The notes beneath the pieces were generated by a model. It was given only the letters and a program-made list of their open reading frames with translations, did not search any database and was not told the origin of the DNA. From positions 128,001 to 192,000 of the forward strand of contig CAVUQO010000003.1 in the NCBI GenBank assembly GCA_963743635.1: a DNA stretch of 64,000 nt. The letters are read 5' to 3'. Shown here piece by piece: positions 19,274 through 52,168 of the stretch. The first letter of the stretch is position 1. Each line of letters opens with the position of its first letter. Origin of the DNA: Candidatus Babeliales bacterium. GTDB taxonomy: Bacteria > Babelota > Babeliae > Babelales > Vermiphilaceae. A program made the position numbers and the translations under genes.

Positions 19274-21748
19274 TTATTGAATGCGCGTTATGGCGATAGT
19301 GGCACATGTTGGAATAGTGGTGTTTGCAATAGTTGAGCTTGTTAATCTTGTGAGATAGCAAGCATTTGCCGCAGCAACTTGAAAACCTATTACTGCAGGC
19401 AAGCTCGTAATATTGACCAGTAATGCATTATCGATGTTTGAGATGCTTCTGAGATTAGTAGCAAATAATGTAGCGGTTGGGCGTATACTCGTCTGACTTC
19501 CTTTAATCTCGGCACCATTAAGCATAACGCGGCCAGCTGCTGTGGTTGGTGGCGCGCCTGAAGCAAGTTGCAACCCATAGCGATAATCTATTTCATAAAG
19601 GCCGGTATAGCTTGCCGAAAAACCGGTATATGATCCTGTGTTGCCCAAAGTACTCCAGCCATCAAGTACCGGAGCTGTCCAGAATCGCACCAATTGGTAC
19701 GTACTTGGGCATGCTATATTTTGATACCCGGTTGCATACGCGAATAGGCTACCGGTAAGTGAAGGGCCAGGATCCCCCGTATTACCAGTTGCTCCAGTAG
19801 CACCGGTATTTCCGGTCACACCAGTTGCACCAGTGTTTCCAGTATTACCTGTATTACCGGTATTACCAGTGTTTCCAGTATTACCTGTATTACCGGTATT
19901 ACCAGTGAGTCCAGTATTTCCGGTCACGCCAGTTGCACCCGTATTACCATCATTTCCAGTGTTCCCAGTATTACCCGTATTACCGGTATTACCAGTGAGT
20001 CCAGTATTTCCAGTGACGCCCGTATTGCCGGTGTTACCAGTGTTTCCAGTATTACCCGTATTACCGGTGTTGCCAGTGAGTCCGGTATTTCCGGTGACGC
20101 CAGTTGCACCCGTGTTACCATCATTACCAGTGTTCCCAGTATTTCCTGTATTACCCGTATTACCAGTGAGTCCGGTATTTCCAGTGACGCCCGTAGCTCC
20201 AGTGTTACCAGTGAGTCCAGTGTTACCAGTGTTACCAGTGTTTCCAGTATTACCTGTATTACCGGTATTACCAGTGAGTCCAGTATTTCCGGTCACGCCA
20301 GTTGCACCCGTGTTACCATCATTTCCAGTGTTACCAGTGTTTCCAGTATTTCCTGTATTACCCGTATTACCAGTGAGTCCGGTATTTCCAGTGACGCCCG
20401 TATTGCCGGTGTTACCAGTGTTCCCAGTATTTCCTGTATTACCAGTATTACCAGTGTTTCCAGTGAGTCCGGTATTTCCAGTCGTACCTGTTGCGCCTGT
20501 GGTTCCCGCCCCGGTTGCCCCAGTTGCGCCAGTATTGCCGGTGTTACCAGTGTTTCCAGTGAGTCCGGTATTTCCAGTCGTACCTGTTGCGCCTGTGGTT
20601 CCTGCCCCGGTTGCCCCAGTTGCGCCGGTATTACCGGTGTTTCCTGTATTACCCGTATTACCAGTAGATCCAGCCCCAGTTGCACCAGTAGCTCCTGTAT
20701 TTCCTGTTGCTCCGGTAGCTCCAGTTGTGCCGGTATTCCCAGTCGTACCTGTTGCGCCTGTGGTTCCTGCCCCGGTTGCCCCAGTTGCGCCAGTATTACC
20801 GGTGTTTCCTGTATTACCCGTATTGCCGGTAGATCCAGCCCCAGTTGCACCAGTCGCGCCGGTGACCCCCGTAGCCCCTGTAGCGCCTGTATTACCCGTT
20901 GAGCCTGTATTGCCAGTGTTTCCTGTTGCGCCAGTTATTCCCGTTGGGCCTGTAGGCCCACCAGATGGACCAGTTGCTCCTGTTGCGCCCGTTGGACCAG
21001 TTGTTCCAGCGCCGGTGTTTCCTGTATTTCCGGTTGCGCCCGTAGCTCCGGTATTTCCTGTTGCGCCAGTTATTCCCGTTGGGCCTGTAGGCCCACCAGA
21101 TGGACCAGTTGCTCCTGTTGCGCCAGTTGGACCAGTTGTTCCAGCACCGGTGTTTCCTGTATTTCCGGTGTTTCCAGTGGCGCCAGTATTACCAGTGTTG
21201 CCCGTTGGCCCTGTAGCGCCGTGCCCAGCTATACCATTGCTGATACACGCACTTTTTGCTTGTAAATTATTCACATACAGGGTTCCAAGTACGGTAAGAT
21301 TTTGAAATGTTGGGGATGCAGCTCGTACACCACTCGTTAACTCAAGAGCGAGTTGTTCGTCTTGCAATTGATCAAGATATGTTTTGAATATGTTTTCTAA
21401 AATACATACCGATTTTGTTTTTTGTTGTTTGATAATTTCAAGCACATTGATAATACCGCGCAATGCGCAACTTTCAGGAACTATCGTATATCCTTCTTGA
21501 ATTGCATCGATAAGATTTAAAAAATCGTTTGAATATGTATGGGATGGATAATGCTGCGGAGTCAAGATAAGCGCATTGCGTATGAGATCAGGAATTCGAA
21601 CAAATAGTTGGTCTGAATGCGCTTCAAGGAGCTCAATATCTTTTTGAGATAAGGAATTTAAAGGATCAACTTCATTGATCGCTGGGGCCGTGCATATGAT
21701 TTGAAGATTGAACCACATAAGGAGGGCAGCTAAATATTTACTTTTCAT
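19274..21748 (-). CDS. Collagen-like surface protein (Gly-X-Thr) with N-terminal pro-domain and C1q/BclA-like C-terminal domain
   Basis: About 490 aa of GNT/GAT/GLT/GVT triplets; C-terminal TGLYEIDY...[10 protein letters not shown]...IAITRIQ. Confidence 0.9.
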
Positions 21749-21915
21749 AATTCTCTCTTTTTTTTGATTCTTTTCATTTCTCTGTATAACGTTTTTTTGA
21801 ATTTGTCGATAGTTTTTTGCATACATTTTCAAAAAAAAGTGTACCTATATATAGCAAACAACAGAGTAAGAATGAACATTCGATAACGTTTACACTACAA
21901 TGAGGAGCCGTACAG

Positions 21916-50595: not shown

Positions 50596-50611
50596 TTGTT
50601 TCTTCCTATAA

Positions 50612-52168
50612 TTACAATACCGCATAAAGCTCAAAGGTTCCGCTGGCAATATTTCCCGAACTAAAGAACAAATGGAAGGCATTGCATCCCGCAGTGTTTA
50701 CCGATCCGCCGGACATTGAATTCAATGTTTTAGTAGTAGTCGTATTATTATATAAAGAGGTAGATCTTCCGTAGCAATTAGGATAAATAGTTTGAGAAGC
50801 TCCTATATTGGTAAATAGTATTTCGCCGCTACTGGAATAATTAGTTAAGACAATAACGGCTTGTGATATTGCTAAGGAACTTGCGTTATTTGAGACGGTA
50901 GTGCTAAAAGTTCCTGCTGAATTACTAAAAAAGTCAATCCCATAATATCCTGATCCTATCCAAGAAGAACCATTGTTATTTGACCATTGTAATTGAATGT
51001 TTGACCCTGATGTGGCAGGAACCACATTGTACCATCTAACCAGAAATTTCGTGTATGCCGTCGGTAGATTGATAAAGGTAACTGCTGAAACGTTACTCAC
51101 CGTTTGCGTTGACAGTAAACGATATGGATTTGAGTTATCGATGTATGCGGTAGTAGCCAATTTCGTAGAATCATCATTAGCGCTTTGCGTGGTAGCTGTT
51201 GCAGTTCCGGTAATTGCTATGCCGTTTGTGCTGCCGGTAAGTACTATATTGCCAGTTCCTGCTTGTATGCTTGTGATGCTTGAAGTATTGGTGGAGCCGA
51301 ACGTAGTTGTTTTTGCAGCATTGCCAGTTGCTATGCTAACCGTGGTATTAGCACTATCGGTAGAAACGTTTAAAGCATTAGTGCCGGAATTGAGTGTGAT
51401 AGTTCCCCCAGAGATAGAAGAATTTCCGGTAGCATTAATGCCGCCAGTAGTAGCAATGAGCCCCGTTCCTGCCGTGAAGGATCCAGAGACGGATGGGCTA
51501 TTATTTAGATTTACCGTTACGATTGCTCCGGTACCGCTGGTATTCATGTTGGATCCGCCATGAATGGTCAATGCATCATTCGATGGAGTTGCAGTTCCAG
51601 AATCAGTTGAAAATGAGGTTGAGACAGAGCCGCTCATTCCGATAGTGATGGTTGATCCTGCGCCGGTGGCAGTGATATTTGATCCGCCAACGATATTAAT
51701 ATTCGCGGCAGCAGAAAATGCCGATCCATTATTGGTGTTATAGAGAAAGATTGTTCTTTTGCCGTCACTCAGATTGTCTTGATCGATATGGACTTGTACC
51801 GTTTGCGCTTGAAGTTCCTGCGCATATTGTTTTAAATCAGTAAGCAGTTTAGTTGCAGGATATTCTGCATTGGCAAGCGTTGCCAGCAGTTGTTCTAAAA
51901 ATGTTAGCAAGGTATCTCGCGGGGTAATATGCGTATCTTGATCAATCAACCATGTTAGATCGATAAGAGAATCGATTTCTGGGTATTGGGCTTTAAACAT
52001 TCTGAGTGCTGTTTTGATATCTTCCGGAATGTACGCAAAATCTACTGCAGGATTATTAATAACAAGATCATAATCCTGCCCAGAAATCATGGCATGAAGG
52101 TTTTGCTGATGCATCGAAAGTAAGAAAATAAATGCGATTAACGCTATTTTTTTCACGGCAATCTTCAT
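50612..52168 (-). CDS. Secreted phage-tail-fibre-like protein with pro-domain
   Basis: LHA-M signal, pro-domain, DGKRTIFL, same body. Confidence 0.8.
   Translation of the reverse strand: MKIAVKKIALIAFIFLLSMHQQNLHAMISGQDYDLVINNPAVDFAYIPEDIKTALRMFKAQYPEIDSLIDLTWLIDQDTHITPRDTLLTFLEQLLATLANAEYPATKLLTDLKQYAQELQAQTVQVHIDQDNLSDGKRTIFLYNTNNGSAFSAAANINIVGGSNITATGAGSTITIGMSGSVSTSFSTDSGTATPSNDALTIHGGSNMNTSGTGAIVTVNLNNSPSVSGSFTAGTGLIATTGGINATGNSSISGGTITLNSGTNALNVSTDSANTTVSIATGNAAKTTTFGSTNTSSITSIQAGTGNIVLTGSTNGIAITGTATATTQSANDDSTKLATTAYIDNSNPYRLLSTQTVSNVSAVTFINLPTAYTKFLVRWYNVVPATSGSNIQLQWSNNNGSSWIGSGYYGIDFFSNSAGTFSTTVSNNASSLAISQAVIVLTNYSSSGEILFTNIGASQTIYPNCYGRSTSLYNNTTTTKTLNSMSGGSVNTAGCNAFHLFFSSGNIASGTFELYAVL

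What the first reader, a model, noticed from the sequence alone, without database searches (positions are those of the whole stretch)
21320..52168. Novel ~120-aa helical pro-domain ending in an acidic stretch and Arg/KR, shared by collagen and fibre proteins
Six genes (starts 21748, 36250, 40896, 47514, 49349, 52168) share (I/L)(S/T)xxD....F.(Y/R)(I/L)P..(I/L)K.....YP....D...H(I/V).P....L..Y...L directly after the signal peptide. Junctions read DIDEIAAEKR|TIFL, DEDDIHDGKR|TVFL, DQDNLSDGKR|TIFL, EEEQTTQVRGRR|CKK and [10 protein letters not shown]. Gene 49366-50595 has lost the domain yet keeps DQDNLSECKR|TILL. This looks like a cleavable targeting or chaperone pro-peptide with a kexin/furin- or gingipain-like site, analogous to type V pilin maturation.
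Basis: partly seen in the sequence, partly recalled or inferred. Interest (0 to 1): 0.8.

Follow-up and report, generated by a model that had tools for sequence, protein, structure and literature searches.

The report
Shared leader domain on bacterial fibres
A small intracellular-type bacterium puts the same previously undescribed ~105-residue helical domain at the front of many different exported fibre proteins, most likely as a common base or sorting module, and whether it is later cut off remains open.

Summary
Six minus-strand genes in the window share a ~105-aa acidic, mostly helical domain directly after a signal-peptide-like N-terminus. More copies lie elsewhere in the 1.45-Mb genome. 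One of the six (36250) is the 5' piece of a broken gene. The domain matches nothing in Pfam, NCBIfam, PDB or BFVD. It is rare: 51 cluster representatives among 1.84 billion proteins, and 45 of 261 genomes of this phylum. It is fused to at least four fibre types: collagen, tailspike-like beta-helix, a repeat fibre, and fibres ending in a Peptidase_S74 chaperone. After the domain, acidic residues, then basic residues, then often cysteines are enriched family-wide. The strict KR is not conserved: 54 of 100 sequences have a dibasic run. Three fibres without the domain keep the basic collar right behind the signal peptide, so the collar belongs to the shaft. A secreted-looking clostripain-family (C11) peptidase exists, but in 257 of 261 genomes, so it is uninformative. 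My best reading (0.42) is a generic N-terminal base, docking or sorting module. Nothing here shows cleavage. It is a new domain family of a known functional kind, of moderate interest.

The parts
19274..21748 (-). Collagen-like fibre gene (824 aa from the ATG at 21748): signal-peptide-like start, N-domain, long G-x-T collagen repeats, C-terminal globular domain
   Evidence: ORF; Pfam Collagen PF01391 E 2.5e-62; domain HMM hit
21314..21661 (-). N-domain plus start of linker in the collagen gene; junction [10 protein letters not shown] at 21323-21343
   Evidence: Alignments A2/A3
31734..36250 (-). Broken paralogue of the 1539-aa fibre gene, split into at least 4 ORFs. The 144-aa ORF 35816-36250 carries the signal peptide and N-domain (35819-36136). 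The junction DIDEIAAEKR|TIFL (35769-35798) lies in the next ORF, in another frame
   Evidence: ORFs; blastn 89% identity over 2.4 kb
36277..40896 (-). 1539-aa fibre gene: signal peptide, N-domain (40429-40776), junction DIDEIAAEKR|TIFL (40411-40440), repeat shaft, beta-helix-like region, C-terminal ...VEMY domain
45334..47514 (-). 726-aa tailspike-like fibre gene: signal peptide, N-domain (47047-47394), junction EEEQTTQVRGRR|CKKFCNLWV (47017-47052), Cys-bearing neck, beta-helix, ...VEVY C-terminus
   Evidence: PDB sequence hit to tail spike gp124 8fqc, E 2.5e-5
47760..49349 (-). 529-aa repeat fibre gene: signal peptide, N-domain (48897-49244), junction DEDDIHDGKR|TVFL (48903-48932)
49366..50595 (-). 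409-aa tandem paralogue without the N-domain. Its signal peptide is joined directly to the linker DQDNLSECKR|TILL (50500-50529). The reading frame is intact and the protein is 72% identical to gene 52168
   Evidence: Alignment A4
50612..52168 (-). 518-aa repeat fibre gene: signal peptide, N-domain (51749-52096), junction DQDNLSDGKR|TIFL (51755-51784)

Best explanation
The block is a previously undescribed, lineage-restricted N-terminal module of Sec-exported trimeric fibre proteins. After the signal peptide is removed, each chain starts with a ~105-aa acidic, mostly helical domain. A 5-25-residue disordered, acid-rich linker joins it to a basic collar, often Cys-bearing, where the fibre shaft begins. 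The same module sits on at least four unrelated shaft and head architectures, always at the end opposite the variable C-terminal heads. I therefore read it as a generic base module. It marks the cell-proximal end and serves docking or sorting of the fibre at the envelope: attachment to an envelope component, or recognition on the secretin-dependent export route. I do not read it as a fold-specific chaperone. The basic collar belongs to the shaft. Cutting in the linker or collar is possible and would release the fibre from the module, but it is not needed for this reading.

Shown: the domain, its position, its distribution, its fusion partners, the charge pattern, and the domain-less paralogues. 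Inferred: trimer formation, surface location, docking, and any cleavage.
For: Position: the domain starts at residues 22-65 in all 51 outside representatives, and 48 of the 50 that start with M have a signal-peptide-like hydrophobic start by a crude hydropathy test.

Modularity: the domain is fused to five kinds of fibre. These are collagen with a globular C-terminus (P0013, P0019, P0021, P0037), tailspike-like beta-helix fibres, a repeat fibre with an ...ELYAVL head, fibres ending in Peptidase_S74 (P0026, P0040, P0046), and a K1-lyase_C end (P0033).

The S74-bearing fibres carry their own folding chaperone, so the N-domain has another task.

Three fibres in this genome lack the domain. They are window 49366-50595, G000:C3:692087-693628 and G000:C3:693639-695263. 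Each keeps the charged spacer and basic collar straight after the signal peptide. The module is therefore optional and the collar is part of the shaft.

Multi-copy and clustered genes: 8 matches in this genome and up to 6 in others.

Glycosyltransferase genes of the window recur beside such fibres in 3-4 of 18 loci from 17 other genomes, as expected for decorated surface fibres.

The genome has 2 secretins and 2 Omp85 proteins, so it has an outer membrane that has to be crossed. Type II secretion parts are reported as common in this phylum (PMC4776705, passages).

Precedent: Legionella Lcl is a type-II-secreted trimeric collagen adhesin. Its N-terminal helix behind the signal sequence is proposed as the membrane anchor (PMC11162425, passages).
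Against: The domain is less conserved than the fibre body in 3 of 3 paralogue pairs: 53.8 vs 74.6%, 73.6 vs 90.7% and 33.9 vs 43.3% identity. One of these pairs includes the broken gene. This is the opposite of phage-fibre anchors that bind one common partner, and it is typical of pro-pieces.

The domain is acidic, with mean net charge -6.7 and a negative charge in 90 of 100 sequences. It would not bind an anionic membrane directly.

No conserved neighbouring partner gene was found in 18 loci. No docking partner is identified.

A flexible linker followed by Arg/Lys, with small residues after the first Arg (S, A or G in 43 of 92), and a secreted-looking C11 peptidase fit removal of the domain.
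Confidence: 0.42

Rival explanations
1. Cleavable pro-domain. The domain acts only during export or assembly, for example by keeping chains soluble or in register. It is then cut off in the linker or at the basic site, either by the bacterium's secreted clostripain-family (C11) peptidase or by a host dibasic-specific convertase. The mature fibre then starts at T/S/A or at the Cys neck.
For: The linker is disordered (pLDDT below 50).

The charge pattern holds across the family (n=100). D/E make up 22-46% of residues at +3..+10. K/R make up 15-23% at most positions from +8 to +23, and 7-18% from there to +30, against 2.4% in the fibre bodies.

54 of 100 sequences have a dibasic run.

The first Arg is preceded by T, K or V in 50 of 92 and followed by S, A or G in 43 of 92. 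The dipeptide TR occurs in 25 of 100, against 10.7 +/- 2.8 in shuffles (maximum 21 of 1000; the sequences are related, so this overstates the effect).

A C11 peptidase with a signal-peptide-like start is encoded about 46 kb upstream of the window.

The domain evolves faster than the body in 3 of 3 pairs.

The domain-less paralogue begins exactly at the linker.
Against: No data show cleavage.

KR or any fixed site is not conserved. 46 of 100 sequences have isolated basic residues only, and some junctions have no basic residue before the neck at all (P0021, P0022).

The basic residues often lie inside the Cys neck (CKKFC, CKTYC), and they persist in fibres that have no domain to remove.

The C11 peptidase is in 257 of 261 genomes while the domain is in 45 of 261, so there is no specific link.

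S8 and omptin were not found in an 85%-complete genome.

P0022 carries two domain-plus-neck units in tandem.

The charge of the domain does not track the charge of the collar (rho 0.03).
Confidence: 0.33
2. Registration or trimerisation nucleus. Because Sec threads chains N-terminus first, an N-terminal domain that folds and associates first would bring three chains into register. The collagen or beta shaft would then zip up from N to C, and the Cys collar would lock it by disulfides. Anchoring is not implied.
For: The location is N-terminal on trimer-type shafts (collagen, tailspike-like). Cys is enriched up to 13% at +12..+29, against 0.6% background. By recollection, the Scl2 V domain and procollagen propeptides nucleate triple helices.
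Against: Three homologues have a C-terminal S74 chaperone that already does this job. Three fibres in this genome do without the domain. No trimer prediction could be run. No DsbA-like Thioredoxin_4 protein was found in the genome (the genome is 85% complete).
Confidence: 0.12
3. Host-directed head. The conserved domain is the functional tip that binds or acts on a host (protist) target, and the fibre only presents it.
For: The domain evolves fast and is restricted to a host-dependent lineage.
Against: The C-terminal ends are the diverse, head-like parts (C1q-like, K1-lyase_C and others), as in known fibres. One domain on many shafts is the pattern of a base, not of a receptor-binding tip. The domain resembles no known binding or enzymatic fold.
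Confidence: 0.06

Closest known systems
N-terminal helix (Lcl-N) of the Legionella collagen-like adhesin Lcl
   Same: Both have a Sec signal sequence, then an N-terminal helical element, then a trimeric collagen shaft and a C-terminal head. Lcl is exported by type II secretion and then held on the bacterial surface, and its N-terminal element is proposed as the anchor (PMC11162425, passages). Both organisms infect protists.
   Different: Lcl-N is a single 30-residue amphipathic, Lys-bearing helix. Here the element is a ~105-aa acidic multi-helix domain followed by a separate basic collar. There is no sequence relation: the NCBIfam Lcl model matches only the collagen repeats of gene 21748 and stays below its cut-off.
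N-terminal attachment domains of phage tail fibres and tailspikes, and their C-terminal Peptidase_S74 chaperones
   Same: One conserved N-terminal module sits on many interchangeable shafts and heads. The bodies resemble tail fibres and tailspikes (PHROGs, PDB), and three homologues end in S74.
   Different: These proteins have signal-peptide-like starts and so are exported, not assembled in the cytoplasm. The domain gave no tblastn match in 50,697 phage records and no BFVD fold match. It is less conserved than the body, not more.
Procollagen N- and C-propeptides, and the BclA N-terminal targeting region of Bacillus exosporium fibres (both recalled, not tested)
   Same: These are terminal non-collagen modules that guide assembly or targeting of a collagen-like trimer and are partly or wholly removed by proteolysis. 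The BclA fibres are glycosylated, and glycosyltransferase genes lie in the cluster here too.
   Different: There is no sequence or fold relation. Cleavage is not shown here. The module also sits on non-collagen fibres.
Type V pilin maturation in Bacteroidota (recalled)
   Same: In both, an N-terminal piece behind the signal peptide would be removed after Arg/Lys by a secreted cysteine protease.
   Different: Type V pilins are lipoproteins with a short pro-strand, are cut by C25 gingipains and polymerise by strand exchange. Here most of the signal peptides read show no obvious lipobox (by eye, no predictor run). No C25 was found, although the control did not ring. The piece is a 105-aa folded helical domain on trimeric fibres.
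TPS domain of two-partner-secretion exoproteins (recalled)
   Same: An N-terminal domain behind the signal peptide directs long fibre-like proteins across the outer membrane through an Omp85-family partner. This genome has two Omp85 proteins.
   Different: The TPS domain is a ~250-aa beta-helix with its own Pfam family. No Pfam family was matched here, the fold is helical, and no transporter gene lies beside the fibres.

Membership tests
Any described protein domain family (Pfam-A, NCBIfam) | A profile match above the curated cut-off over the N-domain | tested here: not met
   For Pfam, each of the 7 domain sequences was scanned at E<=10. The best hit was 17.6 bits against a cut-off of 27, in 1 of 7 members. 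The full proteins gave no N-terminal hit. NCBIfam gave no hit on the domain in 5 fibre proteins.
Any solved or predicted viral fold | A significant structural match to the AlphaFold2 model (pLDDT 82) | tested here: inconclusive
   Foldseek against PDB gave 0 matches at E<=0.001. VIA-align against 48,161 chains gave a best Z of 6.7, in the range of generic helical bundles. BFVD gave 0 matches at E<=0.001.
Kexin/furin-type pro-protein | A conserved dibasic (K/R-R) site at the pro-piece/mature junction | tested here: not met
   Any dibasic run occurs within 30 residues after the domain in 54 of 100 homologues; 46 have isolated K/R only. The position varies.
Kexin/furin-type pro-protein | A subtilisin-like (S8) convertase is available | tested here: not met
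   PF00082 gave 0 matches in the own genome (85% complete), while the control rang in 8 of 14 genomes. Host convertases could not be tested.
Type V pilin | A C25 gingipain-type processing protease | tested here: inconclusive
   PF01364 gave 0 matches, but the control rang in none of 14 genomes.
Type V pilin | A lipoprotein signal peptide with a lipobox Cys | not tested
   No lipoprotein predictor was run. By eye, most starts (for example MKKTLLLMLLCMGIIIYLPSYA|NQ) look like ordinary signal peptides.
Substrate of a clostripain-family (C11) protease | A secreted C11 peptidase is present, and an exposed Arg lies at the junction | tested here: inconclusive
   A C11 gene lies at G000:C3, about 81.1-82.6 kb. 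It encodes 482 aa with a signal-peptide-like start (Pfam E 2.9e-42). An Arg lies within +5..+32 in 92 of 100 sequences. However, C11 is in 257 of 261 genomes and the domain in 45 of 261. Cleavage itself cannot be tested with these tools.
Peptidase_S74 intramolecular chaperone | A match to PF13884 and a C-terminal position | tested here: not met
   The N-domain has no S74 match. S74 is found separately at the C-terminus of P0026, P0040 and P0046.
Collagen triple-helix protein (gene 21748 only) | G-x-y repeats matching PF01391 above the cut-off | tested here: met
   E 2.5e-62, 206.9 bits against a cut-off of 27.2, in 6 stretches.
Two-partner-secretion TPS domain, or SLH anchoring domain | A Pfam match to the respective family in the N-terminal region | tested here: not met
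   No such family appeared among the Pfam results for the fibre proteins or the isolated domains.

The most novel reading that the evidence does not exclude
The acidic helical domain, acidic linker and basic site together form a new proteolytic maturation or release switch for glycosylated trimeric surface fibres of obligate intracellular bacteria of protists. The domain would dock or escort the fibre. A cut after Arg/Lys, by the phylum's conserved secreted clostripain-family peptidase or by a host dibasic-specific convertase inside the vacuole, would then unmask the basic, disulfide-locked collar or free the fibre. This would be a diderm counterpart of procollagen processing and type V pilus maturation, using an unrelated domain.
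Probability: 0.25. Interest if true: 0.7.

Novelty: new variant of a known kind. Interest (0 to 1): 0.45.

Why it matters
Almost nothing is known about how bacteria of this host-dependent phylum build their surface or attach to their protist hosts. In the two genome papers whose passages I searched the words fibre, fiber and collagen do not occur. My literature searches turned up nothing on such fibres or this domain. A single address-like domain shared by up to eight fibre genes per genome gives a handle. It defines the fibre repertoire of a genome, points to a common export, docking or processing step, and offers a defined construct for biochemical tests. If cleavage is real, it would add a new type of fibre maturation in diderm bacteria.

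Tried and rejected
Steps that led nowhere:
- The search for homologous proteins on residues 40-160 of gene 47514 returned only the query itself.
- The search for related loci on genome contigs could not build search patterns from A3 or A2. I used the genome search instead, so no organism names were obtained for the homologues.
- The protein-atlas search gave no usable hit.
- Fold searches gave only generic helical bundles.
- tblastn of the domain against 50,697 phage records gave no match.
The trimer question stays open.

Phyletic profiles were uninformative. The C11 peptidase (257 of 261 genomes) and the outer-membrane-protein-like neighbour 26324-28024 (256 of 261) are near-universal.

The neighbourhood comparison of 18 loci from 17 other genomes found recurring glycosyltransferases but no protease or transporter.

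I tested whether the acidic domain neutralises the basic collar through a charge correlation. The result was rho 0.03 (p 0.73) for net charge and -0.19 (p 0.057) for K/R count, so the idea has no support.

I considered a phage or tailocin origin and rejected it, because the proteins have signal-peptide-like starts (48 of 50).

The long antisense ORFs inside the fibre genes (for example 19833-21305 and 38567-40399) are by-products of the repeats, not genes.
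Full report
WHAT IS THERE

The region 19.2-52.2 kb of the window is a cluster of large minus-strand genes for exported fibre-type proteins. They are interleaved with glycosyltransferase genes and genes for secreted Ig-like proteins (ORFs; Pfam).

Six ORFs share an N-terminal block right behind a hydrophobic, signal-peptide-like start (alignments A1, A2):
- 21748: 824 aa, collagen repeats (PF01391, E 2.5e-62).
- 36250: 144 aa.
- 40896: 1539 aa.
- 47514: 726 aa.
- 49349: 529 aa.
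- 52168: 518 aa.

The ORF at 36250 is not a gene of its own. It is the 5' fragment of a broken paralogue (31734-36250) of the 1539-aa gene. That paralogue is 89% identical in DNA over 2.4 kb and cut into at least four ORFs, with the first frame change exactly between domain and linker. Gene 49366-50595 is an intact tandem paralogue, 72% identical to 52168. In it the domain is removed precisely in frame, so the signal peptide runs straight into DQDNLSECKR|TILL (A4).

IS IT MORE THAN CHANCE, AND HOW WIDE IS THE FAMILY?

An HMM of the six found a seventh copy that had not been used to build it (G000:C3:695239-697209, E 3.1e-20), plus a weak hit on another collagen gene on contig 1 (E 0.029). A broader profile (A3, 28 sequences) gives 8 matches in the genome.

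Against 1.84 billion representative proteins the profile finds only 51 at E<=1e-3 (19 at <=1e-10). In every one the match starts at residues 22-65. 48 of the 50 that begin with M have a signal-peptide-like hydrophobic start by a simple hydropathy rule.

In whole genomes, 45 of the 261 held for this phylum have it (31 of 189 high-quality ones). It occurs in five of 21 families: 27/79, 10/41, 2/8, 1/10 and 4/35. Copy number reaches 6 per genome, often in clusters.

All 261 genomes fall in one order and are 0.5-2.4 Mb in size. My data are consistent with that, but I did not verify a name. Whether the domain occurs outside the phylum was not testable.

WHAT THE DOMAIN IS

AlphaFold2 on A2 gives a compact, mostly helical domain with short strands (mean pLDDT 82.2, pTM 0.72). 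The following linker, residues 108-115, is below pLDDT 50. Conserved landmarks are LSxQD, NP..xFVYIP..xK and, at the end, an almost invariant Tyr in Y..dLesGdA.I.

It has no relative that I could find:
- Pfam: nothing near a cut-off.
- NCBIfam: nothing on the domain.
- Foldseek against PDB and BFVD: no match at E<=0.001.
- An exhaustive structural scan: best Z 6.7, the level of generic helix bundles.
- Phage records by tblastn: none.
- Protein atlas: no usable hit.

The domain is acidic, with mean net charge -6.7 and a negative charge in 90 of 100 sequences.

WHAT IT IS FUSED TO

There are at least four unrelated architectures:
- Collagen repeats with a globular C-terminus (gene 21748, P0013, P0019, P0021, P0037).
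- Tailspike-like beta-helix fibres ending ...VELY or ...VEMY (47514, 40896, the seventh copy). Evidence is a PDB sequence hit to a tail spike, E 2.5e-5, and a weak pectate-lyase-like Pfam hit in the broken copy.
- A repeat fibre with an ...ELYAVL head (52168, 49349, P0028).
- Fibres that end in a Peptidase_S74 intramolecular chaperone (P0026, P0040, P0046).

In addition, P0033 has a K1-lyase_C end. P0022 has two domain-plus-neck units in tandem.

THE JUNCTION

I collected 119 non-identical domain-bearing ORFs from the representatives, the own genome and the fetched loci. 100 of them had at least 45 residues downstream. Counting from the last strand of the domain:
- D/E make up 22-46% of residues at +3..+10.
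- K/R make up 15-23% at most positions from +8 to +23, and 7-18% from there to +30, against 2.4% in the fibre bodies.
- Cys reaches 13% at +12..+29, against 0.6% background.

So 'acidic, then basic, then often a Cys-bearing neck (C..xCNLxV...)' is a family trait. The strict KR is not. 54 of 100 sequences have any dibasic run in the 30 residues after the domain, and 46 have isolated basic residues. That all 100 have at least one K/R in 30 residues is a weak statement.

The first Arg is preceded by T (20), K (19) or V (11), and followed by S (16), A (14) or G (13), out of 92. The dipeptide TR occurs in 25 of 100 sequences, against 10.7 +/- 2.8 in within-sequence shuffles (maximum 21 of 1000). 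The sequences are related, so this overstates the effect.

TWO OBSERVATIONS ABOUT THE BASIC CLUSTER

First, it often continues inside the neck (RRCKKFCNLWV, KKKCKTYCNLLVRNC).

Second, three fibres of this genome that have no domain keep it directly after the signal peptide. These are gene 49366-50595 and two beta-helix fibres just upstream of the seventh copy, G000:C3:692087-693628 (…SVRKKDSCKKFCNLWIRNC…) and 693639-695263.

The collar is therefore part of the shaft module and the domain is optional.

PROTEASES AND ENVELOPE

In the own genome (85% complete) I found no S8 and no omptin. I found no C25 either, but that control rang nowhere. There are two trypsin-fold proteins of 547 and 571 aa, which I did not follow up.

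There is one clostripain-family C11 peptidase of 482 aa with a signal-peptide-like start, about 46 kb upstream of the window (Pfam E 2.9e-42). It is a possible Arg-directed processing enzyme. However, it occurs in 257 of 261 genomes of the phylum, so its presence says nothing specific about the domain.

The genome has two secretins and two Omp85 proteins, so it has an outer membrane and a secretin route. Passages of PMC4776705 and PMC6561590 report type II secretion or type IV pilus parts in this phylum and, in one cultured member, no LPS genes.

The neighbourhoods of 18 loci from 17 other genomes share the window's glycosyltransferases (3-4 loci) and an outer-membrane-protein-like gene (2 loci). 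They share no protease or transporter. That outer-membrane-protein-like family is near-universal, in 256 of 261 genomes.

WEIGHING THE READINGS

A fold-specific intramolecular chaperone is unlikely. The same domain serves unrelated shafts, some fibres bring their own S74 chaperone, and some do without the domain.

What remains is a generic role at the N-terminal, presumably cell-proximal, end: docking or sorting, with or without later removal.

Retained N-terminal anchors are the commoner solution in exported bacterial fibres. Legionella Lcl, a type-II-secreted trimeric collagen adhesin whose N-terminal helix is proposed as its membrane anchor, is the nearest analogue in lifestyle and layout (PMC11162425, passages).

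Against a classical conserved anchor, the domain is less conserved than the body in all three paralogue pairs compared: 53.8 vs 74.6%, 73.6 vs 90.7% and 33.9 vs 43.3%. It is also acidic, and no partner was found. Those points, together with the disordered charged linker and the available C11 enzyme, keep the pro-domain reading alive. An attractive sub-idea, that the acidic domain masks the basic collar, found no support in a charge correlation.

My confidences are:
- Generic base, docking or sorting module: 0.42.
- Cleaved pro-domain: 0.33.
- Pure registration nucleus: 0.12.
- Host-directed head: 0.06.

The trimer test that might have moved these odds could not be run.

COMPARISON WITH KNOWN SYSTEMS AND NOVELTY

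The kind of thing is familiar: one N-terminal module on many fibres, possibly processed. Examples are phage fibre adaptors, Lcl-N, BclA, procollagen and type V pilins (the last three recalled from memory). The domain itself belongs to none of these families by any test I could run.

My searches of the paper library (Dependentiae plus collagen; names of cultured members; phylum names plus fibre terms) turned up nothing describing such fibres or this domain. In the two genome papers whose passages I searched the words fibre, fiber and collagen do not occur. Supplements were not read.

I rate it a new variant of a known kind, of moderate interest. It would rise if cleavage or a dedicated docking partner were shown.

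Noticed in passing
window 31734-36250 (-): A second copy of the 1539-aa fibre gene is broken into at least 4 ORFs. Its 5' 2.4 kb is 89% identical in DNA to the intact copy, its middle is rearranged and its 3' end is 78% identical. It is either a decaying paralogue or contains assembly errors in a repeat-rich gene.
   Followed up: partly
window 26324-28024 (+) and 52959-54222 (+): A 566-aa protein with a signal peptide ends in Phe and has no Pfam or NCBIfam match. It looks like an outer-membrane protein. A second copy at 52959-54222 is split in two. The family is multi-copy and present in 256 of 261 genomes of the phylum, so it may be the phylum's major outer-membrane protein family.
   Followed up: partly
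window 21916-25218, 25243-26136, 29345-31731, 57567-59411, 60296-62994: The fibre genes sit in a glycosylation island. It holds a 1100-aa multi-domain GT2 protein, two tandem GT2+TPR paralogues, GT47/RXYLT1-like proteins and an FkbM-type methyltransferase. Relatives of three of them recur beside fibre genes in 3-4 of 18 loci from other genomes. The fibres are probably glycosylated.
   Followed up: partly
window 28111-29025, 41195-41836, 42033-42998, 43285-44340, 44413-45312: Five small secreted proteins with bacterial Ig-like domains (Big_13, Big_6, Big_7) are interleaved with the fibre genes. Their role is unknown; they may be envelope-layer or fibre-associated proteins.
   Followed up: no
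G000:C3:692087-695263 (partly in L001): Two beta-helix fibre genes lie directly upstream of the seventh domain-bearing gene. They lack the N-domain but have a signal peptide, a ~30-aa spacer and the basic Cys collar. The second is split into two ORFs.
   Followed up: partly
window 54467-57403 (+): A 978-aa protein with an N-terminal thioredoxin domain and a long low-complexity tail lies right beside the fibre cluster. No DsbA-like Thioredoxin_4 protein was found in the genome. It could be an envelope thiol oxidoreductase serving the Cys collars, but this is speculative.
   Followed up: no
P0022 (outside the window): One homologue carries two domain-plus-Cys-neck units in tandem, followed by an AEKAAEEARI repeat tail. 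The domain is therefore not always strictly N-terminal.
   Followed up: no
L042/L043 (G246:C1:676-716 kb): This is a cluster of about ten collagen-type genes. Their ~100-aa N-terminal regions end in ...Y..q....d..vv...RKR|C-neck, but they mostly fall below the profile threshold. The family is probably larger than the 45 of 261 genomes counted.
   Followed up: partly
window 320-2419, 4897-6201, 17982-19361: The window holds WD40-type beta-propeller proteins and a DUF5122 beta-propeller protein with a signal peptide. These are eukaryote-like repeat proteins, as expected for a host-dependent bacterium.
   Followed up: no
window 19833-21305, 34123-35829, 38567-40399 (+): Long antisense ORFs (up to 610 aa, rich in P and V) lie opposite the fibre genes. 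They are by-products of the repetitive G/T/N codon pattern, not genes.
   Followed up: no
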